The position numbers and the translations under genes are program-made. Below, one piece after another: positions 4,013-42,279 of a stretch of DNA of 64,000 bases. The notes below the pieces were generated by a model, which worked only from the letters and a program-made list of their open reading frames with translations, had not been told where the DNA came from and ran no database searches. The first letter of the stretch is position 1; each line of letters starts with the position of its first letter. This stretch comes from Escherichia coli (GTDB lineage Bacteria; Pseudomonadota; Gammaproteobacteria; Enterobacterales; Enterobacteriaceae). Location: the NCBI RefSeq assembly GCF_003790525.1, contig NZ_CP033635.1. One strand, given 5' to 3'.

Positions 4013-4155
4013 AGTTTGCTCCTGCCATAACGTGAAGAAGCAATGACCTGGTGGTCCGTGACTTCCCTACGCTGGCATTATCCAGATCAGGTGATACGGG
4101 TATTTCTCAGCCTTCACGCAGAAGGGCACCCCGAGTCGTTTGGTTGCGATGATAA
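4013..4155 (-). promoter_or_regulatory. TPP (THI-box) riboswitch in the thiM 5' leader
   Basis: Minus-strand sequence reads ...CGGGGTGCCCTTCTGCGTGAAGGCTGAGAAATACCCGTATCACCTGATCTGGATAATGCCAGCGTAGGGAA..., the classical thiM THI-box aptamer, directly upstream of the thiM start. Confidence 0.85.
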
Positions 4156-12880: not shown

Positions 12881-13011
12881 CCCGACTCCTTTTTTGTATA
12901 GATAAACCATCAGCTGATAGTTTACCTGAAGAATATAGAGAAGTACTTACTTAACATTTTCCCATTTGGTACTATCTAACCCCTTTTCACTATTAAGAAG
13001 TAATGCCTACT

Positions 13012-15045
13012 ATGACTCAAGTCGCGAAGAAAATTCTGGTGACGTGCGCACTGCCGTACGCTAACGGCTCAATCCACCTCGGCCATATGCTGGAGCACAT
13101 CCAGGCTGATGTCTGGGTCCGTTACCAGCGAATGCGCGGCCACGAGGTCAACTTCATCTGCGCCGACGATGCCCACGGTACACCGATCATGCTGAAAGCT
13201 CAGCAGCTTGGTATCACCCCGGAGCAGATGATTGGCGAAATGAGTCAGGAGCATCAGACTGATTTCGCAGGCTTTAACATCAGCTATGACAACTATCACT
13301 CGACGCACAGCGAAGAGAACCGCCAGTTGTCAGAACTTATCTACTCTCGCCTGAAAGAAAACGGTTTTATTAAAAACCGCACCATCTCTCAGCTGTACGA
13401 TCCGGAAAAAGGCATGTTCCTGCCGGACCGTTTTGTGAAAGGCACCTGCCCGAAATGTAAATCCCCGGATCAATACGGCGATAACTGCGAAGTCTGCGGC
13501 GCGACCTACAGCCCGACTGAACTGATCGAGCCGAAATCGGTGGTTTCTGGCGCTACGCCGGTAATGCGTGATTCTGAACACTTCTTCTTTGATCTGCCCT
13601 CTTTCAGCGAAATGTTGCAGGCATGGACCCGCAGCGGTGCGTTGCAGGAGCAGGTGGCAAATAAAATGCAGGAGTGGTTTGAATCTGGCCTGCAACAGTG
13701 GGATATCTCCCGCGACGCCCCTTACTTCGGTTTTGAAATTCCGAACGCGCCGGGCAAATATTTCTACGTCTGGCTGGACGCACCGATTGGCTACATGGGT
13801 TCTTTCAAGAATCTGTGCGACAAGCGCGGCGACAGCGTAAGCTTCGATGAATACTGGAAGAAAGACTCCACCGCCGAGCTGTACCACTTCATCGGTAAAG
13901 ATATTGTTTACTTCCACAGCCTGTTCTGGCCTGCCATGCTGGAAGGCAGCAACTTCCGCAAGCCGTCCAACCTGTTTGTTCATGGCTATGTGACGGTGAA
14001 CGGCGCAAAGATGTCCAAGTCTCGCGGCACCTTTATTAAAGCCAGCACCTGGCTGAATCATTTTGACGCAGACAGCCTGCGTTACTACTACACTGCGAAA
14101 CTCTCTTCGCGCATTGATGATATCGATCTCAACCTGGAAGATTTCGTTCAGCGTGTGAATGCCGATATCGTTAACAAAGTGGTTAACCTGGCCTCCCGTA
14201 ATGCGGGCTTTATCAACAAGCGTTTTGACGGCGTGCTGGCAAGCGAACTGGCTGACCCGCAGTTGTACAAAACCTTCACTGATGCCGCTGAAGTGATTGG
14301 TGAAGCGTGGGAAAGCCGTGAATTTGGTAAAGCCGTGCGCGAAATCATGGCGCTGGCTGATCTGGCTAACCGCTATGTCGATGAACAGGCTCCGTGGGTG
14401 GTGGCGAAACAGGAAGGCCGCGATGCCGACCTGCAGGCAATTTGCTCAATGGGCATCAACCTGTTCCGCGTGCTGATGACTTACCTGAAGCCGGTACTGC
14501 CGAAACTGACCGAGCGTGCAGAAGCATTCCTCAATACGGAACTGACCTGGGATGGTATCCAGCAACCGCTGCTGGGCCACAAAGTGAATCCGTTCAAGGC
14601 GCTGTATAACCGCATCGATATGAGGCAGGTTGAAGCACTGGTGGAAGCCTCTAAAGAAGAAGTAAAAGCCGCTGCCGCGCCGGTAACTGGCCCGCTGGCA
14701 GATGATCCGATTCAGGAAACCATCACCTTTGACGACTTCGCTAAAGTTGACCTGCGCGTGGCGCTGATTGAAAACGCAGAGTTTGTTGAAGGTTCTGACA
14801 AACTGCTGCGCCTGACGCTGGATCTCGGCGGTGAAAAACGCAATGTCTTCTCCGGTATTCGTTCTGCTTACCCGGATCCGCAGGCACTGATTGGTCGTCA
14901 CACCATTATGGTGGCTAACCTGGCACCACGTAAAATGCGCTTCGGTATCTCTGAAGGCATGGTGATGGCTGCCGGTCCTGGCGGGAAAGATATTTTCCTG
15001 CTAAGCCCGGATGCCGGTGCTAAACCGGGTCATCAGGTGAAATAA
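13012..15045 (+). CDS. metG: methionyl-tRNA synthetase
   Basis: 677-aa product starting [29 protein letters not shown] (HIGH motif) with KMSKS motif; divergent from mrp. Confidence 0.95.
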
Positions 15046-15085: not shown

Positions 15086-16715
15086 TAAATTCCTAAAGTT
15101 GTTTTCTTGCGATTTTGTCTCTCTCTAACCCGCATAAATACTGGTAGCATCTGCATTCAACTGGATAAAATTACAGGGATGCAGAATGAGACACTTTATC
15201 TATCAGGACGAAAAATCACATAAATTCAGGGCAGTTGAGCAACAGGGAAACGAGTTGCATATCAGTTGGGGAAAAGTTGGCACCAAAGGGCAAAGCCAGA
15301 TAAAAAGTTTTTCAGATGCTGCGGCAGCGGCAAAAGCGGAGCTTAAGCTGATTGCGGAGAAGGTGAAGAAGGGGTATGTGGAGCAAGCGAAGGATAATTC
15401 TTTGCAACCTTCCCAAACGGTAACGGGCTCTCTCAAGGTAGCGGACTTATCCACCATTATTCAGGAACAACCCTCTTTCGTAGCAGAAACCCGTGCGCCT
15501 GACAAAAATACAGATGCTGTTTTACCGTGGCTGGCGAAAGATATTGCTGTCGTTTTTCCGCCCGAAGTTGTACACACCACGTTAAGTCATCGCCGCTTTC
15601 CCGGAGTTCCTGTTCAGCAAGCAGACAAATTGCCCCAATTACGTCGCTTAGCCTGTAGTGTGTCGCAACGGGATAATAAAACAGCCACATTTGACTTCAG
15701 CGCCTGTTCTTTAGAATGGCAAAACACCGTCGCCCAGGCGATCAGTCAGATCGACGGCCTGAAAACAACACAGTTACCATCACCAGTAATGGCTGTACTC
15801 ACGGCACTTGAAATGAAATGCACAAGATATAAAGTGCGTGAGGATGTTATGGATCAGATCGTCCAGGAAGGCGGTCTGGAATATGCTACTGATGTAATAA
15901 TACACCTTCAACAGATTGATATTGAATGGGATTATGCGAATAATGTCATTATTATTCTGCCGTCTGGCATTGCACCTAGCTACTTGGAGCAATATTCCAG
16001 ATTTGAATGACGCCTACGTAAACATTTATCACTGACGGAAGAGTCTCTCTGGCAAAAATGTGCACAAAAACTTATTGCCGCAATTCCACATATTCCAGAA
16101 TGGCGGCAACCATTAATTGCTTTGTTATTACCCGAAAAACCAGAAATTGCACATGAAATTGCCCAGCGTCTACTGGGGCAAAAAAAATTACCCTCGCTTG
16201 AGTGGTTAAAAATAGTGGCGACTGATGAGCACATTCTTGCCTCATTAGAAAAATATCACGAACCATATGCCATTTTTGATGATTACTATTGTGGTGCGAT
16301 ATGGTCAGCCACCGTATTACAGGAGCAAGGTGTTGCAGCCCTGCCCCGATTTGCTCCCTATGCCGCAAGTGACTACTGCGCCGATGTGTTGCGTCATATC
16401 AATCATCCGTTCGCATTGACACTGCTTATACGTGTAGCCGGGCAAACTAAACGCTGTCACGATCGGATGACGAAAGCCATTGCTGCGTTCCCACATGCAG
16501 CAATGGCGGCACTGACGGAACTTCTTGGGCAAAAAGAAGAGAACAGTTGGCGCATTATGCTAATGACAATGCTTATCTCACAACCAGCACTGGCAGAACA
16601 GGTCATTCCCTGGCTCTCGACACCCGCAGTTGCCGTACTGAAATCATGCCAGCAACAACTGACACAGCCCTCAAACCATGCCAGCGCCGATCTACTGCCA
16701 GCCGTAGTAGTCTCC

Positions 16716-18054
16716 CATAAGCGCTAACTTAAGGGTTGTGGTATTACGCCTGATATGATTTAACGTGCCGATGAATTACTCTCACGATAACTGGTCAGCA
16801 ATTCTGGCCCATATTGGTAAGCCCGAAGAACTGGATACTTCGGCACGTAATGCCGGGGCTCTAACCCGCCGCCGCGAAATTCGTGATGCTGCAACTCTGC
16901 TACGTCTGGGGCTGGCTTACGGCCCCGGGGGGATGTCATTACGTGAAGTCACTGCATGGGCTCAGCTCCATGACGTTGCAACATTATCTGACGTGGCTCT
17001 CCTGAAGCGGCTGCGGAATGCCGCCGACTGGTTTGGCATACTTGCCGCACAAACACTTGCTGTACGCGCCGCAGTTACGGGTTGTACAAGCGGAAAGAGA
17101 TTGCGTCTTGTCGATGGAACAGCAATCAGTGCGCCCGGGGGCGGCAGCGCTGAATGGCGACTACATATGGGATATGATCCTCATACCTGTCAGTTCACTG
17201 ATTTTGAGCTAACCGACAGCAGAGACGCTGAACGGCTGGACCGATTTGCGCAAACGGCAGACGAGATACGCATTGCTGACCGGGGATTCGGTTCGCGTCC
17301 CGAATGTATCCGCTCACTTGCTTTTGGAGAAGCTGATTATATCGTCCGGGTTCACTGGCGAGGATTGCGCTGGTTAACTGCAGAAGGAATGCGCTTTGAC
17401 ATGATGGGTTTTCTGCGCGGGCTGGATTGCGGTAAGAACGGTGAAACCACTGTAATGATAGGCAATTCAGGTAATAAAAAAGCCGGAGCTCCCTTTCCGG
17501 CACGTCTCATTGCCGTATCACTTCCTCCCGAAAAAGCATTAATCAGTAAAACCCGACTGCTCAGCGAGAATCGTCGAAAAGGACGAGTAGTTCAGGCGGA
17601 AACGCTGGAAGCAGCGGGCCATGTGCTATTGCTAACATCATTACCGGAAGATGAATATTCAGCAGAGCAAGTGGCTGATTGTTACCGTCTGCGATGGCAA
17701 ATTGAACTGGCTTTTAAGCGGCTCAAAAGTTTGCTGCACCTGGATGCTTTGCGTGCAAAGGAACCTGAACTCGCGAAAGCGTGGATATTTGCTAATCTAC
17801 TCGCCGCATTTTTAATTGACGACATAATCCAGCCATCGCTGGATTTCCCCCCCAGAAGTGCCGGATCCGAAAAGAAGAACTAACTCGTTGTGGAGAATAA
17901 CAAAAATGGTCATCTGGAGCTTACAGGTGGCCATTCGTGGGACAGTATCCCTGACAGCCTACAAAACGCAATTGAAGAACGCGAGGCATCGTCTTAACGA
18001 GGCACCGAGGCGTCGCATTCTTCAGATGGTTCAACCCTTAAGTTAGCGCTTATG
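16716..18054 (+). mobile_element. IS186 (IS4 family) insertion sequence, 1339 bp, perfect 23-bp terminal inverted repeats, flanked by a 10-bp target duplication
   Basis: Left end CATAAGCGCTAACTTAAGGGTTG (16716-16738) is the exact inverted complement of the right end (18032-18054); direct repeat AGTAGTCTCC at 16706-16715 and 18055-18064. Confidence 0.85.
16771..17883 (+). CDS. insL: IS186 transposase (DDE, IS4 family)
   Basis: 370-aa product MNYSHDNWSAILAHIGKPEEL... recognised as the IS186 transposase; lies between the terminal inverted repeats. Confidence 0.85.
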   Translation: MNYSHDNWSAILAHIGKPEELDTSARNAGALTRRREIRDAATLLRLGLAYGPGGMSLREVTAWAQLHDVATLSDVALLKRLRNAADWFGILAAQTLAVRAAVTGCTSGKRLRLVDGTAISAPGGGSAEWRLHMGYDPHTCQFTDFELTDSRDAERLDRFAQTADEIRIADRGFGSRPECIRSLAFGEADYIVRVHWRGLRWLTAEGMRFDMMGFLRGLDCGKNGETTVMIGNSGNKKAGAPFPARLIAVSLPPEKALISKTRLLSENRRKGRVVQAETLEAAGHVLLLTSLPEDEYSAEQVADCYRLRWQIELAFKRLKSLLHLDALRAKEPELAKAWIFANLLAAFLIDDIIQPSLDFPPRSAGSEKKN

Positions 18055-20338
18055 AGTAGTCTCCCCTCCCTGGCTTTCGAAAAAGAAAAAATCGCCGATT
18101 CCGGTGCTGGATTTAGCGCCATTAGGCATTGAGCCAATCTGTTATCTGACAGAAGAAATCAGTAATCAACTTTTGGCGAAATATATCTGGTATTCAAAAC
18201 ACATCACGGTTAGCCATGAAGAAAGTACTACCAACCTGTTGGCAAGGATGGGTTTTCAACGACGGATCGCTGGTACATATATTAAAGCTCCCGAAGCGGT
18301 AGTTGAGGCATGGCTAAATGAAGATTATTCAACCTTACTAAGTGAATTTAAGGTGTTTCATTCACCTACCGGGCATTATTGGCAGTTGGGGATTTTGACA
18401 ACATTGCCGCTGGAGAAAGCAGTAAAAGCATGGAATGCCCTTACCCTATCTCCACATACCGATACCGAATACTCCATGTTACATTTTGGACTCAAAGGGT
18501 TACCTGGGTTAGTAAACTCACTTGCACGCTATCCACAAGAAGCCTTGCCCATCACGAATTACTTCGCAGCGAGTGAGCTGGCTCCTGCCGTCGCCCGTGC
18601 CTTCAACAAACTGAAAACGCTACGCGAAAACGCCCGTAGCTGGCTGTTGAAATACCCGGAACATGCCCTTACCGGCCTGCTGCCTGCGGCGCTCGGCAAA
18701 GCCGGTGAAGCACAGGATAACGCCCGCGCTGCCTTGCGTATGCTTACCGAAAACGGTCATCAGCCATTACTGCAAGAAATCGCCCGACGTTATAACCAGC
18801 CGGAAGTAACCGATGCGGTGAACGCTCTGCTTGCGCTCGATCCCTTAGATAATCACCCGACAAAAATCCCCACTCTTCCGGCCTTTTATCAGCCATCGCT
18901 CTGGACGCGCCCGGTATTAAAAGCAAATGCCCAATCACTGCCAGATAGCGCCCTCCTCCACCTCGGTGAAATGCTCCGCTTCCCTCAGGAAGAGGCTCTG
19001 TATCCGGGATTATTGCAGGTGAAAGACGTCTGTTCCGCCGACTCACTGGCGGGATTTGCCTGGGATCTGTTTACCGCCTGGCAGACCGCTGGCGCGCCGT
19101 CGAAAGAGAGTTGGGCGTTCACTGCGTTAGGCGTTCTCGGTAACGATGACACCGCCCGCAAACTGACGCCATTAATACGCGCCTGGCCTGGTGAATCCCA
19201 GCATAAACGCGCCACCGTTGGGTTGGATATTCTCGCTGCTATCGGTAGTGATATCGCCCTTATGCAGCTTAACGGCATCGCCCAGAAACTGAAATTCAAA
19301 GCATTACAGGAGCGGGCAAAAGAAAAAATTGCCGACATTGCCGAGAGCCGCGAACTCACGGTGGCGGAGCTTGAAGATCGGTTAGCACCGGATCTCGGTC
19401 TGGATGATAACGGTTCGCTGCTGCTGGATTTTGGCCCACGGCAGTTCACCGTCAGCTTTGATGAAACCTTAAAACCGTTTGTGCGTGATGTTTCCGGCAG
19501 CCGCCTGAAAGACCTGCCCAAACCGAACAAAAGCGATGATGAAACGCGGGCGAACGATGCGGTTAACCGCTACAAATTGCTGAAAAAAGATGCGCGTACC
19601 ATCGCCGCCCAGCAGGTAGCAAGGCTGGAATCCGCCATGTGCCTGCGCCGCCGCTGGTCGCTGGAAAACTTCCAGCTCTTCCTGGTTGAGCATCCGCTGG
19701 TTCGTCACTTAACCCGCCGTCTGATTTGGGGCGTTTATAGCGCCGAAAACCAGCTACTGGCTTGCTTTCGCGTAGCAGAAGATAACAGCTCCAGCACCGC
19801 TGACGATGATCTTTTCACCCTGCCGGAAGGCGATATCTCTATCGGCACTCCTCACGTTCTGGAAATATCACCAACGGATGCTGCCGCCTTTGGTCAGCTT
19901 TTTGCCGACTACGAACTGCTACCACCGTTCCGCCAGCTCGACCGTAACAGCTACGCCCTGACAGAAGCCGAGCGCAATGCCAGTGAACTGACCCGCTGGG
20001 CAGGCAGAAAATGCCCGAGTGGTCGGGTCATGGGGCTGGCGAATAAAGGCTGGATAAAGGGCGAACCACAGGATGGAGGCTGGATCGGATGGATGATCAA
20101 ACCTTTGGGTCGCTGGTCGTTAATCATGGAAATCGATGAAGGCTTTGCGGTAGGCATGTCGCCAGCCGAACTCAGCGCTGAGCAGCTCTTAAGCAAGCTG
20201 TGGCTATGGGAAGGCAAAGCAGAAAGATATGGCTGGGGGAGTAATTCAACACAGGAAGCGCAGTTCTCCGTAATCGATGCCATCACCGCCAGCGAGCTAA
20301 TTAACGATATTGAAGCCCTGTTTGAATAAGGAAAGAGC

Positions 20339-23300
20339 ATGGACAAGGAATTACCGTGGCTGGCGGATAACGCCCAACTGGAACTGAAATATAAAAAAGG
20401 CAAAACGCCGCTCAGTCATCGTCGCTGGCCGGGCGAACCAGTGTCCGTTATCACTGGAAGTCTCATCCAGACATTGGGTGATGAATTGCTACAAAAAGCT
20501 GAGAAGAAAAAAAACATTGTCTGGCGTTATGAGAATTTTTCACTGGAGTGGCAGTCCGCCATCACGCAGGCCATCAACTTGATCGGCGAACACAAACCCT
20601 CAATCCCGGCCCGGACAATGGCGGCGCTAGCCTGTATCGCGCAAAATGACAGCCAACAGTTGCTCGACGAAATCGTCCAACAAGAGGGGCTGGAATATGC
20701 GACTGAGGTGGTGATTGCACGCCAGTTTATTGCGCGGTGTTATGAGAGTGATCCTCTGGTAGTGACATTGCAGTATCAGGACGAGGATTATGGCTATGGT
20801 TATCGCTCAGAAACCTATAACGAATTCGATCTCCGACTGCGTAAGCATCTCTCTCTGGCAGAGGAAAGCTGCTGGCAGCGTTGCGCCGACAAACTCATTG
20901 CCGCACTACCAGGAATAACCAAAGTTCGCCGCCCTTTTATTGCGCTGATCCTCCCGGAAAAACCAGAAATAGCCAATGAGTTGGTAGGCCTTGAATGCCC
21001 GCGAACTCATTTTCATTCTAAGGAGTGGTTAAAAGTTGTTGCTAATGACCCCACAGCGGTGAGAAAACTCGAACACTACTGGAGCCAGGATATATTTAGC
21101 GATCGAGAAGCCAGCTACATGTCGCATGAAAACCACTTCGGCTACGCGGCCTGCGCCGCCCTTTTGCGCGAACAAGGACTGGCAGCCATTCCGCGCCTCG
21201 CGATGTATGCCCATAAAGAAGATTGCGGCAGTCTGCTGGTACAAATTAACCATCCGCAAGTCATCCGCACCTTGCTACTGGTGGCTGATAAAAACAAACC
21301 CAGCCTGCAACGTGTAGCTAAATACCATAAAAACTTCCCCCATGCGACGCTCGCCGCACTGGCAGAACTGCTGGCGTTAACAGAACCACCAGCCCGCCCT
21401 GGTTATCCAATCATCGAAGACAAAAAGCTGCCTGCACAGCAAAAAGCACGCGATGAATACTGGCGTACGCTGTTACAAACGCTGATGGCATCGCAGCCAC
21501 AACTGGCAGCAGAAGTGATGCCGTGGTTAAGTACTCAACCCCAGTCAGTGCTGAAGAGTTATTTATCGGCACCGCCCAAACCGGTTATTGATGGCACCGA
21601 TAACAGCAATCTGCCAGAAATCCTCGTTTCACCACCGTGGCGTAGTAAGAAAAAAATGACAGCTCCACGTCTTGATTTGGCACCGCTCGAATTAACTCCG
21701 CAAGTTTACTGGCAACCAGGCGAACAAGAGAGGCTTGCCGCCACTGAGCCTGCCCGTTATTTCAGCACGGAATCTCTTGCGCAACGCATGGAACAAAAAA
21801 GTGGACGAGTTGTATTACAGGAACTGGGTTTTGGGGATGATGTATGGCTGTTTCTGAATTATATACTCCCCGGAAAACTGGATGCTGCACGCAATTCACT
21901 CTTGTTCAGTGGCATTACTACCAGGGGCGGGTTGAAGAGATCCTGAATGGCTGGAACTCCCCGGAAGCACAATTAGCAGAACAGGCGCTCCGCAGCGGTC
22001 ACATAGAAGCGTTAATTAACATATGGGAAAATGACAACTACTCACATTATCGTCCGGAAAAGAGTGTCTGGAACCTGTATTTATTGGCACAGTTGCCGCG
22101 TGAGATGGCTTTGACCTTCTGGCTGCGTATCAATGAGAAAAAGCATCTGTTCGCGGGTGAGGACTATTTTCTCAGTATCCTCGGATTGGATGCGCTACCA
22201 GGTCTGCTGTTGGCTTTTTCACATCGTCCAAAAGAAACATTTCCGTTAATTTTAAATTTTGGCGCAACAGAACTGGCGCTGCCTGTTGCCCACGTCTGGC
22301 GACGTTTCGCGGCGCAGCGTGATCTGGCTCGCCAGTGGATTTTACAATGGCCGGAACATACGGCTAGTGCACTTATCCCTCTTGTCTTTACCAAACCCAG
22401 CGATAATAGCGAAGCCGCATTACTTGCCCTGCGTTTACTGTACGAACAGGGACATGGCGAATTGCTACAAACCGTGGCAAACCGCTGGCAGCGTACAGAT
22501 GTATGGTCTGCCCTGGAGCAGTTGCTTAAACAGGGTCCAATGGACATTTACCCGGCACGCATTCCAAAAGCCCCTGATTTCTGGCATCCGCAAATGTGGT
22601 CCAGGCCGCGCCTTATCACTAATAATCAAACTGTTACCAATGACGCTCTGGAAATTATCGGCGAAATGCTGCGCTTTACCCAGGGGGGACGTTTTTATAG
22701 CGGGCTGGAACAACTGAAAACGTTCTGCCAGCCACAAACGCTGGCAGCTTTTGCCTGGGATCTCTTCACTGCGTGGCAACAAGCTGGTGCCCCCGCAAAA
22801 GACAACTGGGCATTTCTGGCGTTAAGTCTCTTTGGTGACGAAAGCACGGCACGGGATCTGACGACACAGATCCTCGCCTGGCCACAAGAAGGCAAATCTG
22901 CCCGTGCTGTCAGCGGCCTGAACATCCTTACCCTGATGAATAATGATATGGCGCTGATACAGCTGCATCATATATCGCAACGGGCTAAATCCCGCCCCTT
23001 ACGTGATAACGCGGCGGAATTTCTTCAGGTGGTCGCAGAAAATCGCGGGCTAAGCCAGGAAGAGCTAGCGGACAGATTAGTCCCAACCCTGGGCCTTGAT
23101 GATCCGCAGGCGTTGAGTTTTGATTTTGGTCCCCGGCAGTTTACCGTTCGCTTCGATGAAAATCTCAACCCGGTTATCTTTGATCAGCAAAACGTTCGCC
23201 AGAAAAGCGTTCCCCGTTTGCGCGCCGATGACGATCAACTGAAAGCGCCCGAGGCACTGGCCCGACTAAAAGGGCTAAAAAAAGATGCTACTCAGGTGAG

Positions 23301-23970
23301 CAAAAACCTGCTCCCGCGTCTTGAAACGGCCCTACGTACCACCCGACGCTGGTCGCTGGCAGATTTTCATTCTCTGTTTGTTAATCATCCCTTTACCCGT
23401 CTGGTTACCCAGCGATTAATATGGGGGGTTTATCCGGCAAATGAACCGCGTTGTTTACTCAAAGCCTTTCGTGTGGCCGCAGAGGGGGAGTTCTGCAATG
23501 CGCAAGATGAGCCAATTGACCTGCCTGCGGACGCTCTGATTGGCATTGCCCACCCGTTAGAAATGACAGCAGAAATGCGCAGTGAATTTGCACAGCTTTT
23601 TGCCGATTACGAAATTATGCCGCCTTTTCGCCAGTTGTCGCGCCGCACGGTGCTGCTCACACCTGACGAGTCAACCAGTAACAGCCTGACTCGCTGGGAA
23701 GGTAAATCCGCTACCGTTGGGCAACTTATGGGAATGCGATACAAAGGCTGGGAGTCAGGCTATGAGGACGCATTTGTCTATAACCTGGGTGAGTACCGGC
23801 TGGTCCTTAAGTTTTCACCCGGTTTTAACCACTACAATGTTGATAGCAAAGCGCTAATGAGCTTCCGTTCTCTTCGAGTGTACCGTGACAATAAATCCGT
23901 CACTTTTGCCGAACTTGATGTGTTTGATTTGAGTGAGGCGTTAAGCGCACCTGACGTCATTTTCCATTAA
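20339..23970 (+). pseudogene. yehI: yehI-like DUF4132 gene split into two overlapping ORFs by a frameshift within 21841-21946
   Basis: ORFs 20339-21946 and 21844-23970 overlap in different frames and together are collinear with the molR paralogue. Confidence 0.65.
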
Positions 23971-24030: not shown

Positions 24031-24348
24031 ATGATCGTGCAAAAAGAGCTGGTTGCTATTTACGATTATGAGGTCCCTGTACCTGAAGATCCGTTTTCCT
24101 TCAGACTTGAGATCCATAAATGCTCTGAATTATTTACAGGTTCCGTCTATCGACTGGAGCGATTCCGGCTACGTCCAACATTTCATCAACGTGATCGAGA
24201 AGATGCTGACCCGCTAATAAATGATGCGTTGATTTATATAAGAGATGAGTGTATTGATGAGCGGAAATTACGAGGTGAATCACCTGAAACTGTAATAGCA
24301 ATTTTTAATCGTGAACTACAGAATATATTCAACCAAGAAATAGAATAA
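24031..24348 (+). CDS. yehK: small protein of unknown function
   Basis: 105-aa ORF, AT-richer than its neighbours, at the K-12 yehK position. Confidence 0.65.
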   Translation: MIVQKELVAIYDYEVPVPEDPFSFRLEIHKCSELFTGSVYRLERFRLRPTFHQRDREDADPLINDALIYIRDECIDERKLRGESPETVIAIFNRELQNIFNQEIE

Positions 24349-24517
24349 TATACTCTAAATAATTCAAATTGGTCCGATCCGGCGCAACGTCCCAATGGCC
24401 TGGATTATAAATCTCATTATCTTAATTGCAACGGGGTCCAGCCGTGGTTATAATTCGTTCGTTGGAACACGATGTTGCACAGGCTGTGGTGTTAGGCCTG
24501 AAAATAGTAAATAAAAG

Positions 24518-24546
24518 AACCTGCCTCACCAGCAGGTTTTTTTATT
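24518..24546 (+). terminator. intrinsic terminator about 170 nt downstream of yehK
   Basis: Hairpin CCTGC-CTCACCA-GCAGG followed by TTTTTTTATTT. Confidence 0.65.
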
Positions 24547-24654
24547 TACTGTGATCTGCTTTCCAGATATTTTTCGCTCAAACAACTAATGCGCCAAACA
24601 TTTATTGCGCGTAAAATATCGTTTATTTCATTAATACATTTCAGGGATGAATAT

Positions 24655-25743
24655 ATGTCACCGCAGAATAATCATCTGCAGCGTCCGCCTGCTGCTGTGT
24701 TATACGCCGATGAACTGGCAAAATTAAAACAAAATGATAACGCACCTTGCCCGCCCGGTTGGCAGTTAAGTTTGCCTGCGGCCCGTGCTTTTATCCTTGG
24801 CGACGAAGCGCAAAATATCAGCCGTAAAGTGGTGATTAGCCCCTCCGCTGTCGAACGTATGTTAGTCACTCTTGCTACCGGCCGCGGTTTGATGTTGGTG
24901 GGGGAACCGGGTACCGCAAAATCTCTTCTTTCTGAATTACTGGCAACCGCTATTAGCGGCGATGCCGGGTTAACCATCCAGGGCGGGGCATCTACCACCG
25001 AAGATCAAATCAAGTATGGCTGGAACTACGCCCTGCTTATCAATCATGGTCCGTCAACGGAAGCGCTGGTCCCTGCCCCGCTTTATCAGGAAATGCGCGA
25101 CGGCAAAATCGTCCGTTTCGAAGAGATAACGCGTACACCGCTGGAAGTGCAGGACTGTCTGTTAGGTATGCTTTCTGACAGGGTGATGACGGTGCCGGAA
25201 CTCACTGGTGAAGCCAGTCAGCTCTATGCGCGAGAAGGCTTTAATATTATTGCCACTGCCAATACCCGCGATCGCGGCGTCAATGAAATGAGTGCTGCGC
25301 TAAAGCGTCGCTTCGATTTTGAAACGGTTTTTCCGATTATGGATTTCGCCCAGGAGTTGGAACTGGTCGCCAGTGCTTCGGCGCGTTTGCTGGCCCATAG
25401 CGGTATTCCGCATAAAGTGCCTGACGCGGTACTGGAATTACTGGTCCGCACCTTCCGCGATCTGCGTGCCAACGGCGAAAAGAAAACGTCAATGGATACA
25501 CTGACAGCGATTATGTCCACCGCTGAAGCCGTGAACGTGGCCCATGCTGTGGGCGTCCGCGCCTGGTTTTTAGCGAATCGCGCGGGGGAGCCTGCCGACC
25601 TGGTGGAATGTATTGCCGGAACCATCGTCAAAGATAACGAAGAAGATCGCGCGCGTCTGCGCCGTTACTTCGAACAGCGTGTCGCCACACATAAAGAAGC
25701 TCACTGGCAGGCTTATTATCAAGCCCGCCACCGCCTGCCGTGA
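24655..25743 (+). CDS. yehL: MoxR-like AAA+ ATPase
   Basis: 362-aa product from the ATG at 24655; Walker A LMLVGEPGTAKS. Confidence 0.85.
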   Translation: MSPQNNHLQRPPAAVLYADELAKLKQNDNAPCPPGWQLSLPAARAFILGDEAQNISRKVVISPSAVERMLVTLATGRGLMLVGEPGTAKSLLSELLATAISGDAGLTIQGGASTTEDQIKYGWNYALLINHGPSTEALVPAPLYQEMRDGKIVRFEEITRTPLEVQDCLLGMLSDRVMTVPELTGEASQLYAREGFNIIATANTRDRGVNEMSAALKRRFDFETVFPIMDFAQELELVASASARLLAHSGIPHKVPDAVLELLVRTFRDLRANGEKKTSMDTLTAIMSTAEAVNVAHAVGVRAWFLANRAGEPADLVECIAGTIVKDNEEDRARLRRYFEQRVATHKEAHWQAYYQARHRLP

Positions 25744-25753
25744 GGAAAGATGC

Positions 25754-28033
25754 ATGAGCGAGCCGTTAATTGTCGGCATCCGGCATCATAGTCCGGCCTG
25801 CGCCCGGCTGGTGAAATCGTTAATCGAAAGCCAGCGGCCACGATACGTGTTGATTGAAGGCCCGGCTGATTTTAATGACCGGGTAGACGAACTGTTTTTA
25901 GCCCACCAGCTTCCGGTAGCTATTTACAGTTATTGCCAGTATCAGGACGGTGCAGCCCCCGGGCGTGGTGCCTGGACGCCATTTGCTGAATTTTCGCCGG
26001 AGTGGCAGGCGCTACAAGCCGCACGTCGCATTCAGGCACAAACTTACTTCATCGATTTGCCTTGCTGGGCGCAGAGTGAAGAAGAGGACGATTCGCCTGA
26101 TACGCAAGATGAAAGCCAGGCCTTACTGCTGCGTGCCACCCGCATGGATAACAGCGATACCCTGTGGGATCACTTGTTCGAAGATGAAAGCCAGCAAACT
26201 GCATTACCCTCTGCGCTGGCGCACTATTTTGCCCAACTGCGGGGCGACGCCTCCGGCGATGCGCTCAATCGTCAGCGCGAAGCCTTTATGGCCCGCTGGA
26301 TTGGATGGGCGATGCAGCAAAATAATGGCGACGTGTTAGTTGTCTGCGGTGGCTGGCACGCTCCGGCACTGGCAAAGATGTGGCGCGAATGCCCTCAGAA
26401 AATTAACAAGCCAGAATTGCCCTCGCTGGCAGATGCCGTTACAGGTTGTTATCTCACACCCTACAGTGAAAAGCGCCTTGATGTGCTGGCAGGATACCTT
26501 TCAGGAATGCCTGCCCCGGTATGGCAAAACTGGTGCTGGCAGTGGGGCTTGCAGAAGGCCGGTGAACAACTGCTAAAAACTATCCTTACCCGTTTGCGCC
26601 AGCACAAATTGCCCGCTTCTACCGCGGATATGGCTGCCGCTCATCTGCATGCGATGGCGCTGGCACAGTTGCGCGGTCATACACTACCGTTACGCACTGA
26701 CTGGCTGGATGCCATAGCAGGCTCGCTGATTAAAGAAGCCCTGAACGCGCCGTTGCCGTGGAGCTATCGCGGCGTTATTCATCCCGATACCGATCCGATT
26801 CTGCTAACGTTGATAGACACATTAGCGGGTGACGGATTCGGTAAACTTGCCCCTTCTACGCCACAACCGCCTCTGCCAAAAGATGTCACCTGCGAACTGG
26901 AACGTACCGCAATCTCCCTTCCGGCGGAGCTTACCTTAAATCGCTTTACCCCCGATGGGCTGGCGCAAAGTCAGGTGTTACATCGGCTGGCAATACTGGA
27001 GATCCCTGGGATTGTACGCCAGCAGGGAAGTACACTGACACTTGCAGGCAACGGTGAAGAACGCTGGAAATTAACCCGCCCGCTTAGCCAGCATGCGGCA
27101 TTGATTGAGGCCGCCTGTTTTGGTGCCACACTCCAGGAAGCCGCACGCAATAAATTAGAAGCCGATATGCTGGACGCGGGCGGAATCGGCAGTATCACCA
27201 CATGTCTTAGCCAGGCGGCGTTAGCGGGTCTGGCGTCCTTCAGTCAACAATTACTGGAGCAACTCACACTATTAATCGCCCAGGAAAATCAATTTGCCGA
27301 AATGGGCCAGGCGCTGGAAGTGCTTTATGCCTTATGGCGGCTGGATGAAATTAGCGGTATGCAAGGCGCGCAGATATTACAAACGACGTTATGCGCGACT
27401 ATCGATCGCACGCTGTGGCTGTGTGAATCTAACGGCAGACCGGATGAAAAGGAGTTTCACGCTCACCTGCATAGCTGGCAAGCGCTTTGCCATATTCTGC
27501 GCGATCTACATAGCGGCGTTAATTTACCCGGCGTTTCTCTTTCTGCGGCGGTAGCCTTACTGGAGCGACGCAGTCAGGCAATTCATGCCCCGGCGCTGGA
27601 TCGCGGCGCGGCTCTTGGCGCACTAATGCGTCTGGAACATCCCAACGCCAGTGCCGAAGCGGCGCTGACGATGCTGGCGCAGTTATCCCCGGCACAATCT
27701 GGTGAGGCGCTGCACGGTTTGCTGGCGCTGGCCCGCCATCAACTGGCCTGTCAGCCGGCATTTATCGCCGGTTTCAGCAGTCATTTAAATCAACTGAGTG
27801 AAGCCGATTTTATTAACGCCCTGCCCGATTTACGCGCGGCGATGGCCTGGCTACCACCACTAGAACGCGGGACGCTGGCGCATCAGGTGCTTGAGCATTA
27901 TCAACTGGCGCAACTTCCCGTTTCGGCGCTGCAAATGCCGTTGCATTGTCCACCACAGGCCATTGCACATCATCAACAACTCGAACAGCAGGCACTGGCA
28001 TCGCTGCAAAACTGGGGAGTTTTCCATGTCTGA
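25754..28033 (+). CDS. yehM: large protein of unknown function, partner of the MoxR ATPase
   Basis: 759-aa ORF starting MSEPLIVGIRHHSPACARLV...; tightly linked to yehL and yehP. Confidence 0.8.
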   Translation: MSEPLIVGIRHHSPACARLVKSLIESQRPRYVLIEGPADFNDRVDELFLAHQLPVAIYSYCQYQDGAAPGRGAWTPFAEFSPEWQALQAARRIQAQTYFIDLPCWAQSEEEDDSPDTQDESQALLLRATRMDNSDTLWDHLFEDESQQTALPSALAHYFAQLRGDASGDALNRQREAFMARWIGWAMQQNNGDVLVVCGGWHAPALAKMWRECPQKINKPELPSLADAVTGCYLTPYSEKRLDVLAGYLSGMPAPVWQNWCWQWGLQKAGEQLLKTILTRLRQHKLPASTADMAAAHLHAMALAQLRGHTLPLRTDWLDAIAGSLIKEALNAPLPWSYRGVIHPDTDPILLTLIDTLAGDGFGKLAPSTPQPPLPKDVTCELERTAISLPAELTLNRFTPDGLAQSQVLHRLAILEIPGIVRQQGSTLTLAGNGEERWKLTRPLSQHAALIEAACFGATLQEAARNKLEADMLDAGGIGSITTCLSQAALAGLASFSQQLLEQLTLLIAQENQFAEMGQALEVLYALWRLDEISGMQGAQILQTTLCATIDRTLWLCESNGRPDEKEFHAHLHSWQALCHILRDLHSGVNLPGVSLSAAVALLERRSQAIHAPALDRGAALGALMRLEHPNASAEAALTMLAQLSPAQSGEALHGLLALARHQLACQPAFIAGFSSHLNQLSEADFINALPDLRAAMAWLPPLERGTLAHQVLEHYQLAQLPVSALQMPLHCPPQAIAHHQQLEQQALASLQNWGVFHV

Positions 28034-29162
28034 ACTGAACGATCTTCTGACCACCCGTGAGCTACAACGCTGGCGATTAATTCTTGGCGAAGCGGCAGAA
28101 ACGACGCTTTGTGGGCTGGATGACAACGCCCGGCAGATAGACCACGCGCTGGAGTGGCTGTATGGGCGCGATCCTGAACGGCTCCAGCGTGGTGAACGTT
28201 CCGGTGGATTAGGTGGCTCAAATCTCACCACCCCTGAGTGGATCAACAGTATTCACACGCTGTTTCCGCAGCAGGTGATTGAGCGGCTGGAAAGCGATGC
28301 CGTGCTGCGCTACGGCATTGAAGATGTGGTGACGAATCTCGACGTGCTGGAACGTATGCAGCCTTCTGAAAGCCTGCTACGCGCTGTTTTGCACACCAAA
28401 CATCTGATGAACCCCGAAGTACTGGCTGCCGCCCGCCGGATAGTGTGCCAGGTTGTTGAAGAAATTATGGCTCGACTGGCAAAGGAAGTTCGTCAGGCTT
28501 TTTCTGGTGTCCGCGATCGCCGTCGCCGTTCATTTATTCCACTGGCGCGAAACTTTGATTTCAAAAGTACTCTGCGCGCCAACCTGCAACACTGGCACCC
28601 GCAACACGGCAAGTTGTATATCGAATCCCCCCGCTTTAACAGCCGCATTAAACGCCAAAGCGAACAATGGCAACTGGTCTTACTGGTTGATCAAAGCGGA
28701 TCGATGGTTGACTCGGTGATCCACTCTGCGGTGATGGCGGCCTGTTTATGGCAGTTACCCGGCATTCGTACCCATCTGGTGGCGTTTGACACCAGCGTCG
28801 TTGATCTCACGGCAGACGTTGCTGATCCGGTAGAGTTATTAATGAAAGTACAACTGGGCGGCGGGACCAATATCGCCAGTGCCGTGGAGTATGGTCGGCA
28901 ACTTATTGAACAACCAGCAAAAAGCGTCATTATCCTCGTGAGCGATTTCTATGAAGGGGGTTCATCATCATTGCTGACGCATCAGGTGAAAAAGTGTGTC
29001 CAGAGCGGCGTCAAAGTGCTGGGACTGGCGGCGCTCGATAGCACCGCAACACCTTGCTATGACCGCGATATGGCCCAGGCGCTGGTTAATGTCGGCGCAC
29101 AAATAGCTGCCATGACACCGGGCGAACTGGCGGCCTGGCTTGCGGAGAATCTTCAGTCATGA
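28026..29162 (+). CDS. yehP: von Willebrand factor A (VWA) domain protein
   Basis: 378-aa product MSELNDLLTT...; MIDAS-like motif LLVDQSGSM; start overlaps the yehM stop by 8 nt. Confidence 0.85.
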   Translation: MSELNDLLTTRELQRWRLILGEAAETTLCGLDDNARQIDHALEWLYGRDPERLQRGERSGGLGGSNLTTPEWINSIHTLFPQQVIERLESDAVLRYGIEDVVTNLDVLERMQPSESLLRAVLHTKHLMNPEVLAAARRIVCQVVEEIMARLAKEVRQAFSGVRDRRRRSFIPLARNFDFKSTLRANLQHWHPQHGKLYIESPRFNSRIKRQSEQWQLVLLVDQSGSMVDSVIHSAVMAACLWQLPGIRTHLVAFDTSVVDLTADVADPVELLMKVQLGGGTNIASAVEYGRQLIEQPAKSVIILVSDFYEGGSSSLLTHQVKKCVQSGVKVLGLAALDSTATPCYDRDMAQALVNVGAQIAAMTPGELAAWLAENLQS

Positions 29163-31159
29163 ATTCACTACGTCCGGAATTATTAGAACTGACGCCGCAG
29201 GCCCTGACGGCGTTAAGCAATGCCGGTTTTGTTAAACGCAGTCTTAAGGAACTGGAAAATGGCAACGTCCCGGAAATCAGCCATAAGAACGGCGCTTTAA
29301 TCGCCACCTTCAGTGACGGTGTCCGTACCCAGCTGGCGAACGGTCAGGCACTGAAAGAGGCTCAATGCAGCTGCGGGGCCAACGGTATGTGCCGTCATCG
29401 CGTGATGCTGGTGTTAAGTTATCAACGACTTTGTGCCACCACTCAGTCTACGGAAAAAGAAGAAGAGTGGGATCCGGCAATCTGGCTGGAAGAACTGGCT
29501 ACCCTTCCCGATGCTACCCGCAAACGCGCACAGGCGCTGGTCGCTAAAGGCATCACCATTGAGTTGTTCTGTGCGCCGGGTGAAATTCCCTCTGCCCGCT
29601 TACCGATGAGCGATGTGCGTTTTTATTCCCGCAGCAGTATTCGTTTCGCCCGTTGTGATTGTATTGAAGGCACACTTTGCGAACATGTCGTACTGGCGGT
29701 ACAGGCCTTCGTCGAGGCCAAAGCGCAGCAAGTAGAATTTAACCATTTAATCTGGCAGATGCGCAGCGAACACGTCACATCATCTGACGATCCGTTTGCC
29801 AGCGAAGAAGGCAACGCGTGTCGTCAATATGTTCAGCAATTAAGCCAGACATTATGGCTTGGCGGCATCAGCCAGCCGCTCATCCATTACGAGGCAGCAT
29901 TCAACCGCGCATTGCAGGCGGCAGAGACCTGCAACTGGCGCTGGGTGAGTGAATCGCTACGGCAACTGCGCGCCAGCGTTGATGCCTTCCACGCCCGCGC
30001 CAGCCACTATAATGCCGGAGAATGCTTACATCAGCTTGCGGCATTAAACAGTCGATTAAATTGCGCACAAGAGATGGCCCGGCGCGACAGTATTGGTGAA
30101 GTTCCTCCTGTGCCGTGGCGCACGGTCGTTGGCTCTGGCATTGCCGGAGAAGCAAAGCTTGATCATCTGCGGCTGGTGTCTTTAGGTATGCGTTGCTGGC
30201 AGGATATTGAGCATTATGGTTTACGCATCTGGTTTACCGATCCCGACACCGGCAGTATTTTGCACCTTTCGCGCAGTTGGCCGCGAAGTGAACAGGAAAA
30301 CTCACCGGCAGCTACGCGTCGGCTGTTTAGTTTTCAGGCTGGCGCACTGGCGGGCGGGCAAATTGTTTCACAAGCAGCAAAACGCAGTGCCGATGGCGAG
30401 CTGCTGTTAGCTACCCGCAACCGCTTAAGCAGCGTTGTGCCGCTGTCGCCTGATGCCTGGCAAATGTTGAGCGCGCCGTTACGCCAGCCGGGCATTGTGG
30501 CTTTGCGGGAATATTTACGCCAGCGTCCCCCCGCCTGCATACGGCCTCTTAATCAGGTCGATAACTTATTTATTCTGCCGGTCGCTGAGTGTATTTCGCT
30601 CGGTTGGGACAGCAGCCGCCAGACGCTGGATGCGCAGGTCATTAGCGGCGAAGGGGAAGATAATGTGCTGACGTTATCATTACCAGCCTCAGCCAGCGCA
30701 CCTTATGCCGTTGAACGCATGGCGGCGCTTTTGCAACAAACAGACGACCCCGTGTGTCTGGTTTCTGGCTTTGTCAGTTTTGTTGAAGGGCAATTGACAC
30801 TGGAACCACGGGTGATGATGACAAAAACCCGTGCCTGGGCGCTGGACGCAGAAACTACGCCTGTGGCACCGCTACCTTCTGCCAGCGTTTTGCCTGTGCC
30901 GTCTACTGCTCATCAGTTGCTGATACGCTGCCAGGCGTTACTTATTCAACTGCTCCATAACGGCTGGCACTATCAGGAACAGAGTGCTATTGGTCAGGCA
31001 GAGTTGCTGGCGAATGACCTCACCGCGGTGGGTTTTTATCGGCTGGCACATGTGTTGGGACAATTTCGTAATACAGAAAGCGAGGCACGGGTAGAAGCAA
31101 TGAATAACGGTGTTTTGCTTTGCGAACAATTATTCCCCATGCTTCAGCAACAAGGATGA
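29159..31159 (+). CDS. yehQ: SWIM zinc-finger domain protein
   Basis: Two SWIM-like CxC...CxH motifs (CSCGANGMCRHRVMLV and CDCIEGTLCEHVVLAV); ATGA start/stop overlap with yehP. Confidence 0.8.
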   Translation: MNSLRPELLELTPQALTALSNAGFVKRSLKELENGNVPEISHKNGALIATFSDGVRTQLANGQALKEAQCSCGANGMCRHRVMLVLSYQRLCATTQSTEKEEEWDPAIWLEELATLPDATRKRAQALVAKGITIELFCAPGEIPSARLPMSDVRFYSRSSIRFARCDCIEGTLCEHVVLAVQAFVEAKAQQVEFNHLIWQMRSEHVTSSDDPFASEEGNACRQYVQQLSQTLWLGGISQPLIHYEAAFNRALQAAETCNWRWVSESLRQLRASVDAFHARASHYNAGECLHQLAALNSRLNCAQEMARRDSIGEVPPVPWRTVVGSGIAGEAKLDHLRLVSLGMRCWQDIEHYGLRIWFTDPDTGSILHLSRSWPRSEQENSPAATRRLFSFQAGALAGGQIVSQAAKRSADGELLLATRNRLSSVVPLSPDAWQMLSAPLRQPGIVALREYLRQRPPACIRPLNQVDNLFILPVAECISLGWDSSRQTLDAQVISGEGEDNVLTLSLPASASAPYAVERMAALLQQTDDPVCLVSGFVSFVEGQLTLEPRVMMTKTRAWALDAETTPVAPLPSASVLPVPSTAHQLLIRCQALLIQLLHNGWHYQEQSAIGQAELLANDLTAVGFYRLAHVLGQFRNTESEARVEAMNNGVLLCEQLFPMLQQQG

Positions 31160-42084: not shown

Positions 42085-42279
42085 ATGGATTTTTCTTCCT
42101 TTGTTGCCCGACGTGGCAGCGAAAATGGTGCAAAAACCGTAGTTTGCCATAAGCATGATGGAGAGAGAAAAAGAATGCTCAGTTTATTGTCTGAATTTTC
42201 AAAATATTCACTCGCTGAATTGTTATACAAGGCGCTATTCTAGTTTGTGATATTTTTTCGCCACCACAAGGAGTGGAAA

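What the first reader, a model, noticed from the sequence alone, without database searches (positions are those of the whole stretch)
15186..23970. Both WGR/DUF4132 paralogues beside yehLMPQ (molR and yehI) are inactivated in this sequence
molR and yehI are large paralogous genes directly upstream of yehK-yehLMPQ. Here molR carries an in-frame TGA at 16008-16010 and an IS186 insertion, and yehI is split by a frameshift in 21841-21946. Loss of both partners suggests the associated system is dispensable or counter-selected in this lineage, typical of decaying accessory or conflict modules.
Basis: partly seen in the sequence, partly recalled or inferred. Interest (0 to 1): 0.55.

Follow-up and report, generated by a model that had tools for sequence, protein, structure and literature searches.

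The report
Two broken DUF4132 genes beside yehLMPQ
In this E. coli sequence both large DUF4132 genes (molR and yehI) next to the intact yehLMPQ operon are genuinely broken, by an old stop codon also found in K-12, a rare 1-bp deletion and an IS186 insertion at a hot spot; this is ordinary sporadic gene decay in a dispensable locus of unknown function.

Summary
All three lesions are real. (1) molR codon 275 is TTA>TGA at 16008-16010. The allele occurs in 710 of 5,426 complete E. coli genomes, including K-12 MG1655, where the gene is already annotated as yehF plus pseudogene yehH. (2) An IS186 copy (16716-18054, 100% identical to K-12 IS186A) with a 10-bp target duplication splits molR at codon 510. 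The same site and duplication are used in other genomes in both orientations and on both TTA and TGA backgrounds, so it is an insertion hot spot. (3) yehI has a 1-bp deletion (TTT>TT, 21902-21903, codon 522), shared with only one complete genome, TUM9803. No other coding indel appears in about 48 kb, so an assembly error is unlikely.

yehK and yehLMPQ are intact. Only MolR has a WGR domain; YehI does not. The locus is near-universal in E. coli (5,420 of 5,426 genomes) and under purifying selection (dN/dS 0.05-0.24), yet 6 of 14 sampled genomes carry some lesion in it. No protein matches a PADLOC defence family.

Dispensability is supported. Counter-selection, accessory status and a conflict role are not shown. 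Each lesion is already annotated in a public record, so interest is low.

The parts
15186..16010 (+). molR 5' fragment (equivalent to K-12 yehF, 274 codons, WGR domain at aa 6-69), ending at the premature TGA at 16008-16010 (TTA>TGA, codon 275)
16011..16715 (+). molR codons 276-510, same frame, up to the IS insertion point. The last 10 bases (16706-16715, AGTAGTCTCC) are the left copy of the target duplication.
16716..18054 (+). IS186 (RefSeq name: IS4-like element IS421 family), 1,339 bp, 23-bp terminal inverted repeats, transposase ORF about 16771-17883. 100% identical to IS186A of K-12 MG1655.
18055..18064 (+). right copy of the 10-bp target-site duplication AGTAGTCTCC
18065..20329 (+). molR 3' fragment (codons 511-1264): alpha-solenoid plus DUF4132 (aa 478-663 of this fragment, about nt 19496-20053)
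20339..23970 (+). yehI, 3,632 nt, broken by a 1-bp deletion (TTT>TT at 21902-21903, codon 522). N-terminal ORF 20339..21946; C-terminal ORF 21844..23970 in another frame. DUF4132 lies in the C-terminal part.
24031..24348 (+). yehK, intact (105 aa)
24655..25743 (+). yehL, MoxR-type AAA+ ATPase, intact (362 aa)
25754..28033 (+). yehM, DUF5682 protein, intact (759 aa)
28026..29162 (+). yehP, vWA-domain protein, intact (378 aa)
29159..31159 (+). yehQ, SWIM-like zinc-finger protein, intact at 666 aa (K-12 has an amber at codon 615)

Best explanation
Three independent loss-of-function mutations of different ages have left this strain with no full-length DUF4132 protein, while the neighbouring yehK-yehLMPQ genes stay intact.

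The inferred order is as follows. (i) An old nonsense allele in molR (TTA>TGA, codon 275) circulates in about 13% of sequenced E. coli, including K-12. (ii) A recent 1-bp deletion arose in yehI and is shared only with strain TUM9803. (iii) An IS186 copy then landed, privately to this strain, in the already dead molR at a sequence-specific IS186 hot spot.

All three lesions lie upstream of the conserved DUF4132 domain, so neither paralogue can make that domain as part of a full-length protein.

MolR and YehI belong to a widespread five-gene module: a MoxR AAA+ ATPase (YehL), DUF5682 (YehM), a vWA protein (YehP), a SWIM-like protein (YehQ) and a (WGR-)solenoid-DUF4132 protein. By analogy with RavA-ViaA and NorQ-NorD, YehL and YehP probably form an ATP-driven remodelling pair. 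The large HEAT/ARM-like DUF4132 proteins would be its scaffold, adaptor or client subunits. That part is inference.

Losing both paralogues most likely leaves the ATPase core without its partner, giving a functionally silent module. It reflects sporadic decay of a locus that is conserved but conditionally dispensable, not selection against it.
For: Lesions.

Age and frequency: the TGA is in 710 of 5,426 genomes, including MG1655, where the gene is annotated as yehF plus pseudogene yehH. The yehI deletion is in 1 of 5,426, TUM9803, where it is annotated 'frameshifted'. The IS junction in this orientation is in 5 of 5,426; the two checked at codon 275 (VL7S7, Res13) carry TTA, and none of the five matched the window at 100%. 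TUM9803 has the TGA and the deletion but no IS.

Hot spot: the site and the 10-bp duplication are identical in both orientations and on both TTA and TGA backgrounds. A lon-promoter hot spot for IS186 is documented (PMC3861542, citing saiSree 2001).

Assembly quality: there is no other coding indel in about 48 kb against TUM9803 and K-12.

Core intact: yehK, L, M, P and Q are full length.

Module: WGR and DUF4132 Pfam hits. Conserved AAA_5-DUF5682-WGR/DUF4132-VWA-~650 aa clusters occur around two distant homologues. YehL is the type of a MoxR subfamily (PMC3893208). The AF2 model (pLDDT 93.8) is an alpha-solenoid plus alpha/beta domains with no enzyme-like match.

Selection: dN/dS is 0.013 for metG, 0.047 for yehL, 0.065 for yehP, 0.13 for yehM, 0.20 for yehI and 0.24 for molR. 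Lesions occur in 6 of 14 sampled genomes.
Against: There are no reads, so the yehI deletion rests on two assemblies whose independence I cannot verify.

The k-mer survey could miss the same deletion on diverged flanks.

The order of events is inferred from allele frequencies, not from a phylogeny.

The function of the module is unknown. The adaptor role for DUF4132 and 'silent without it' are inferences from gene neighbourhood and fold only.

Fragments might retain activity. K-12 annotates the 274-aa WGR fragment YehF as a protein. The yehI C-terminal ORF has its own ATG at 21844, preceded by GGGGAT.

Fourteen genomes are too few to separate neutral decay from weak selection for loss.
Confidence: 0.7

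Rival explanations
1. Adaptive loss. The DUF4132 proteins, or the whole module, are costly or harmful in some niches, for example a self-targeting or phage-exploited conflict system, and are repeatedly knocked out by selection.
For: There are many independent lesions across lineages. They include the TGA in 710 genomes; other frameshifts and stops in yehI and yehM; a yehI-yehM deletion; two of three paralogues plus yehM broken in O157:H7; and IS186 in molR, yehL and yehM. TnMB1860 sits in this region in the expanding ST131 L1a lineage. The paralogues evolve faster (dN/dS 0.20-0.24) and molR has twice the dS of its neighbours.
Against: dN/dS is well below 1 for every gene, and the locus is kept in 5,420 of 5,426 genomes. 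The recurrent IS site is explained by IS186 target specificity, with both orientations giving the identical duplication. The IS here hit an already dead gene. There is no PADLOC match. These are long genes, so they are large mutational targets.
Confidence: 0.15
2. Sequencing or assembly artefact. The TGA and/or the 1-bp deletion are errors, leaving only the IS insertion as real.
For: The deletion is in a short T run (TTT>TT) and occurs in only one other complete genome. No reads are available.
Against: The TGA is in 710 complete genomes, including the K-12 reference. The deletion is independently present and annotated in TUM9803. The window has no other coding indels in about 48 kb against two close relatives. 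A 3-base run is not a typical homopolymer error site.
Confidence: 0.04
3. The split genes are still functional. The fragments (WGR-only YehF-like protein, the yehI N- and C-terminal halves, or UGA read-through at the weak TGA-C context) still supply enough activity, so the system is remodelled rather than lost.
For: K-12 RefSeq annotates the 274-aa fragment as protein YehF. The stop context is TGA-C. The yehI C-terminal ORF starts at an ATG at 21844 with a G-rich stretch upstream and contains the whole DUF4132 domain.
Against: In this window the IS interrupts molR downstream of the TGA, so read-through cannot restore it. No evidence of expression was obtained. The predicted fold is one continuous solenoid, so halves are unlikely to assemble. 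In the 65-sequence family alignment most members are full-length single chains of 1,100-1,300 aa.
Confidence: 0.1

Closest known systems
K-12 MG1655 molR pseudogene (yehF b2115 plus yehH b4499)
   Same: It has the identical TTA>TGA nonsense allele at codon 275. The molR-yehI haplotype is nearly identical: one SNP plus the lesions.
   Different: K-12 has an extra +G frameshift in yehH and an amber in yehQ, but an intact yehI and no IS186 here. The window has an intact yehQ, the IS186 insertion and the yehI deletion.
E. coli TUM9803 (NZ_CP135671.1) molR/yehI pseudogenes
   Same: It carries the same TGA and the same 1-bp deletion in yehI. It differs from the window at 3 bases in 16.7 kb upstream of the IS insertion point and is identical across molR-yehI.
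   Different: It has no IS186 in molR. It diverges from the window beyond about 28 kb and lacks the yohP-IS110-lysO junction.
IS186 hot-spot insertions (lon promoter type)
   Same: An identical IS186 element inserts repeatedly at exactly one site, in both orientations, with a 10-bp duplication. Hot-spot behaviour is documented for lon.
   Different: The target here (CCGT|AGTAGTCTCC|CCTCCC) is inside a coding gene. I could not read the paper that gives the published consensus target sequence, so no comparison with it was made.
MoxR AAA+ / vWA chaperone pairs (RavA-ViaA, NorQ-NorD, CbbQ-CbbO)
   Same: YehL is a MoxR-family AAA+ ATPase encoded next to a vWA protein (YehP). YehL names one of the seven MoxR subfamilies.
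   Different: The module has three further conserved partners: DUF5682, a SWIM-like protein and WGR-solenoid-DUF4132. No client or function is known and nothing was tested biochemically.
ST131 L1a disruption of the 'DUF4132 region' by TnMB1860
   Same: The same metG/DUF4132/yeh region is broken by a mobile element in a natural lineage (PMC9334617).
   Different: The element is different (a resistance transposon, not IS186), and the background is a three-paralogue B2 strain.

Membership tests
IS186 (IS4 family; RefSeq 'IS421 family') | An element of about 1.34 kb that is near-identical to reference IS186 | tested here: met
   1,339 of 1,339 bases identical to IS186A of MG1655
IS186 (IS4 family; RefSeq 'IS421 family') | Terminal inverted repeats and a flanking direct target duplication | tested here: met
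   23-bp inverted repeats CATAAGCGCTAACTTAAGGGTTG and the 10-bp duplication AGTAGTCTCC
IS186 (IS4 family; RefSeq 'IS421 family') | An intact transposase ORF | tested here: met
   ORF 16765..17883. The same sequence is annotated as IS421-family transposase WP_001300563.1 in RefSeq.
WGR + DUF4132 proteins (MolR type) | An N-terminal WGR domain (PF05406) | tested here: met
   MolR aa 6-69, E 1.7e-18. For YehI this feature is not met: no WGR hit, and the protein starts at MolR residue 110.
WGR + DUF4132 proteins (MolR type) | A C-terminal DUF4132 domain (PF13569) | tested here: met
   MolR E 4.6e-50 and YehI E 4.6e-47. In the window both domains lie downstream of the lesions.
Pseudogene (loss of the full-length product) | A premature stop, frameshift or insertion relative to intact orthologues | tested here: met
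   Alignment with intact alleles. RefSeq flags the same lesions as 'internal stop' and 'frameshifted' in TUM9803.
Pseudogene (loss of the full-length product) | No functional product made from the fragments | not testable with these tools
   No expression or read data are available.
MoxR-vWA module, YehL subfamily | A MoxR AAA+ ATPase gene adjacent to a vWA gene | tested here: met
   yehL and yehP are intact. RefSeq product names, weak NCBIfam hits and AAA_5 / VWA_CoxE Pfam families in distant clusters.
MoxR-vWA module, YehL subfamily | Conserved linkage of the DUF4132 protein with the ATPase, DUF5682, vWA and SWIM-like genes | tested here: met
   Two of three distant homologues lie in the same five-gene cluster, with permuted gene order. 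The third stands alone.
MoxR-vWA module, YehL subfamily | ATP-dependent remodelling of a defined client | not testable with these tools
   No client is known. This is inference from RavA-ViaA and NorQ-NorD.
Known or candidate anti-phage defence systems (PADLOC-DB 2.0) | At least one component matching a defence-system HMM | tested here: not met
   No families at E<=0.01 for YehI, YehK, YehL, YehM, YehP or YehQ.
Accessory (variable) genomic module | Patchy presence across the species, or a mobile context | tested here: not met
   The locus matches in 5,420 of 5,426 complete genomes and lay between metG and yehR in every genome inspected. Only the paralogue number (2 or 3) and the zor-orz insert vary.

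The most novel reading that the evidence does not exclude
The YehLMPQ plus (WGR-)DUF4132 cluster is an uncharacterised, phylogenetically widespread five-component MoxR-vWA machine. In this reading the large solenoid DUF4132 proteins are fast-evolving sensor or adaptor subunits that vary in copy number (two or three paralogues in the E. coli genomes inspected). Nucleic-acid-binding-type modules (WGR, SWIM) would fit a surveillance or conflict role. This strain and TUM9803 would then be natural 'all adaptors lost, core intact' mutants, and recurrent adaptor loss would be a route of escape from the system's cost.
Probability: 0.15. Interest if true: 0.6.

Novelty: already known. Interest (0 to 1): 0.2.

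Why it matters
It matters little on its own. The molR stop is the long-annotated K-12 allele, and the other two lesions are routine strain-level events that public annotation already flags in other genomes.

There are three modest points of value. This haplotype is a natural double null for the DUF4132 partners with an intact YehLMPQ core, which could help anyone trying to assign a function to this conserved but unstudied MoxR-vWA module. molR codon 510 is a precise IS186 hot spot, used independently in both orientations. The locus also shows that frequent tip-level pseudogenes can coexist with species-wide retention and purifying selection, which warns against reading 'two pseudogenes' as evidence of a decaying conflict island.

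Tried and rejected
PADLOC scan of YehI, K, L, M, P and Q gave no hits.

NCBIfam gave nothing for YehI, YehK, YehM or YehQ. It gave only weak sub-threshold AAA and vWA hits for YehL and YehP.

A PDB sequence search with YehI and YehM gave no hits at E<=1.

The Aravind-lab paper on NTP-dependent conflict systems (PMC7159879) does not mention SWIM, WGR, YehL, YehM or DUF5682, so this module is not one of the systems described there.

Literature searches for DUF4132 and the yeh genes returned almost nothing functional.

The search for homologous proteins returned only E. coli orthologues. The representative search was needed to reach distant relatives.

The saiSree 2001 paper with the IS186 consensus target could not be read, so the site was not compared with the published consensus.

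I considered an excess of IS186 across the whole cluster. I rejected any claim because the counts are clonal and not clearly above a uniform expectation.

The source genome was not identified. No RefSeq complete genome combines all three lesions.
Full report
**What is in the sequence**

The region lies between metG (13003-15045) and yehR. It has the gene order metG - molR - yehI - yehK - yehL - yehM - yehP - yehQ seen in annotated E. coli genomes.

molR starts at 15186. Its frame ends at a TGA at 16008-16010 and then continues in the same frame until 16715. There a 1,339-bp element begins, ending at 18054. The element has 23-bp terminal inverted repeats and is flanked by a 10-bp direct duplication, AGTAGTCTCC, at 16706-16715 and 18055-18064. 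It is 100% identical to IS186A of K-12 MG1655.

Removing the element and one duplication copy restores a 3,795-nt gene with a single internal stop at codon 275. Alignment with other alleles shows that the stop is a T>G change at 16009, TTA(Leu)>TGA.

yehI (20339-23970) is 3,632 nt against 3,633 nt for intact alleles. One T of a TTT run is missing at 21902-21903, codon 522. This splits the gene into ORFs 20339..21946 and 21844..23970.

**Corrections to the description**

MolR and YehI are true paralogues, 37% identical over about 1,184 residues. Only MolR has the N-terminal WGR domain (aa 6-69, E 1.7e-18). YehI begins at the equivalent of MolR residue 110 and has only DUF4132.

All three lesions lie upstream of the DUF4132 domains. 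yehK, yehL, yehM, yehP and yehQ are full length in the window. K-12, by contrast, has an amber at yehQ codon 615.

**Are the point lesions errors?**

I searched all 5,426 complete RefSeq E. coli genomes with short queries designed so that every 28-base seed must span the variant.

- The TGA allele is present in 710 genomes. These include MG1655, where the gene is already annotated as yehF (the 274-aa WGR fragment) plus the pseudogene yehH.
- The yehI deletion allele is present in exactly one genome, TUM9803. RefSeq annotates that genome's yehI as 'frameshifted' and its molR as 'internal stop'.
- Against TUM9803 and K-12, the window shows no other indel inside a coding region over about 48 kb of alignable sequence. 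The assembly is therefore not indel-prone.

The TGA is certainly real. The deletion is very probably real, although only reads could prove it.

**The IS insertion**

The same junction in the same orientation occurs in 5 of 5,426 genomes. Eight more match only the flank plus the 23-bp inverted repeat.

Two of those eight were inspected: G1/2, and ETEC1703 (which carries the TGA). In both, IS186 sits at exactly the same position with the identical 10-bp duplication but in the opposite orientation. VL7S7 and Res13 (TTA background) have it in the window's orientation.

Both orientations, on both the TTA and TGA backgrounds, mean several independent insertions at one site. That makes it an IS186 hot spot, as is documented for the lon promoter. 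IS186 also interrupts yehL or yehM in other genomes.

In the window the IS landed in a gene that already carried the TGA, so it says nothing about selection.

**Order of events (inferred)**

The allele frequencies are 710 genomes for the TGA, 1 for the deletion and 0 for the full combination. TUM9803 has the TGA and the deletion but not the IS. The most economical order is therefore TGA, then the yehI deletion, then IS186.

**Population context**

The molR-yehI segment matches in 5,420 of 5,426 genomes, and in 4,083 of them one match covers at least 80% of the query. In every genome inspected it sat at the same chromosomal site. It is a core locus, not an accessory one.

I took 14 genomes at even steps down the similarity ranking.

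- Eight have every large gene intact.
- The other six carry the K-12-type TGA; a different yehI frameshift; a yehI nonsense; a yehM nonsense; a deletion fusing yehI to yehM; and, in O157:H7, two of three paralogues broken plus a yehM nonsense.
- None of the 14 had lost all of its DUF4132 paralogues.
- Four of the 14 (47538, B36, E105 and O157:H7 MB9-1) carry a third paralogue between metG and molR.

For intact alleles, pairwise Nei-Gojobori dN/dS is 0.013 for metG, 0.047 for yehL, 0.065 for yehP, 0.13 for yehM, 0.20 for yehI and 0.24 for molR. molR has about twice the dS of its neighbours.

The module is therefore under purifying selection across the species. The DUF4132 paralogues are the least constrained parts, and breakage is frequent at the tips of the tree. 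The literature adds that the ST131 L1a lineage carries the blaCTX-M-15 transposon TnMB1860 in this 'DUF4132 region' (PMC9334617).

**What the module is**

- YehL is the type member of one of the seven MoxR AAA+ subfamilies (PMC3893208), and YehP is a vWA protein.
- The DUF4132 family is large: 5,955 clusters at 50% identity with E<=0.001.
- Two of three distant members examined lie in the same five-gene cluster, made of AAA_5, DUF5682, WGR-DUF4132, VWA and a protein of about 650 aa. Gene order is permuted between them. The third member stands alone.
- A high-confidence AlphaFold model of the C-terminal 754 residues of MolR (pLDDT 93.8, pTM 0.87) shows a HEAT/ARM-like alpha-solenoid followed by alpha/beta domains.
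- No component matches PADLOC, NCBIfam gives no function, and no relative has a solved structure.

My working model is inference. YehL and YehP form an ATP-driven remodelling pair like RavA-ViaA or NorQ-NorD. The DUF4132 solenoid proteins are their scaffold, adaptor or client subunits. Without either paralogue the intact core is probably idle.

**Verdict on the interpretation**

'Dispensable' is supported. 'Counter-selected', 'accessory' and 'conflict module' are not. The locus is core, is under purifying selection and is absent from defence catalogues. The IS event is explained by target preference in an already dead gene.

Each lesion is already annotated in a public record (K-12, TUM9803, and VL7S7 and others). 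Only the combination is new, and it is a rare one: no complete RefSeq genome combines all three.

**Other things seen in the window**

- An OrzO-P antitoxin sRNA match without its ZorO/ZorP toxin genes lies in the yehK-yehL spacer.
- An IS110-family element joins yohP to lysO-hcp-hcr-poxB. K-12 and TUM9803 have dusC downstream of yohP instead. The junction is shared by 97 complete genomes, including SMS-3-5.

Noticed in passing
window 24468-24543 (+), in the yehK-yehL spacer 24349-24654: A full-length OrzO-P antitoxin sRNA match (Rfam RF02083, 99.9 bits against a gathering score of 60) with a promoter-like site just upstream (24426-24454). No ZorO/ZorP toxin ORF is present. The spacer equals the last 292 bp of the 1.24-kb O157:H7 spacer, which holds two 29-aa toxin genes and two Orz copies. 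K-12 has the same orphan copy, although Fozo et al. 2010 describe the zor-orz loci as absent from MG1655.
   Followed up: partly
window about 49381-50764 and 50971-63296: An IS110-family transposase element (ORF 49654..50679, minus strand) joins yohP to lysO-hcp-hcr-poxB-ltaE and onward. In K-12 and TUM9803, dusC and yohJK follow yohP instead. From memory of the K-12 map, the hcp-poxB genes lie near 0.9 Mb and yohP near 2.24 Mb, which suggests a large inversion roughly symmetric about the terminus. The junction is 100% identical in 97 complete genomes, including SMS-3-5, so it is a lineage arrangement and not a misassembly.
   Followed up: partly
L017-L020 (loci from other genomes), between metG and yehI: Four of the 14 sampled genomes carry three DUF4132 paralogues rather than two, with an extra gene of about 3.8 kb directly after metG. 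In O157:H7 MB9-1 the first has an internal stop, the second is broken into WGR and DUF4132 fragments, and yehM has an internal stop. Strain 47538 has a deletion fusing yehI to yehM.
   Followed up: partly
L004 (K-12 MG1655): yehH at the equivalent of window 19379; yehQ codon 615: Besides the shared TGA, K-12 has a +G frameshift in the molR 3' part and a GAG>TAG amber that truncates YehQ to 614 aa. The laboratory reference therefore lacks a full-length MolR and has a shortened YehQ.
   Followed up: yes
window 28000-30000 and 42000-49400, compared with TUM9803 and K-12: SNP density is mosaic. There are 3 differences from TUM9803 in the first 16.7 kb, but 11-29 per kb in blocks at 28-30 kb (yehP/yehQ) and 42-49 kb. 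This indicates recombination tracts; the molR-yehI haplotype is K-12-like while the flanks are not.
   Followed up: no
window 44971-45051 (-) and 4047-4143 (-): Expected cis-regulatory RNAs: the Peptidase-S11 leader upstream of pbpG and the TPP riboswitch upstream of thiM. Both are also present in K-12.
   Followed up: no
[not shown]
   Followed up: no
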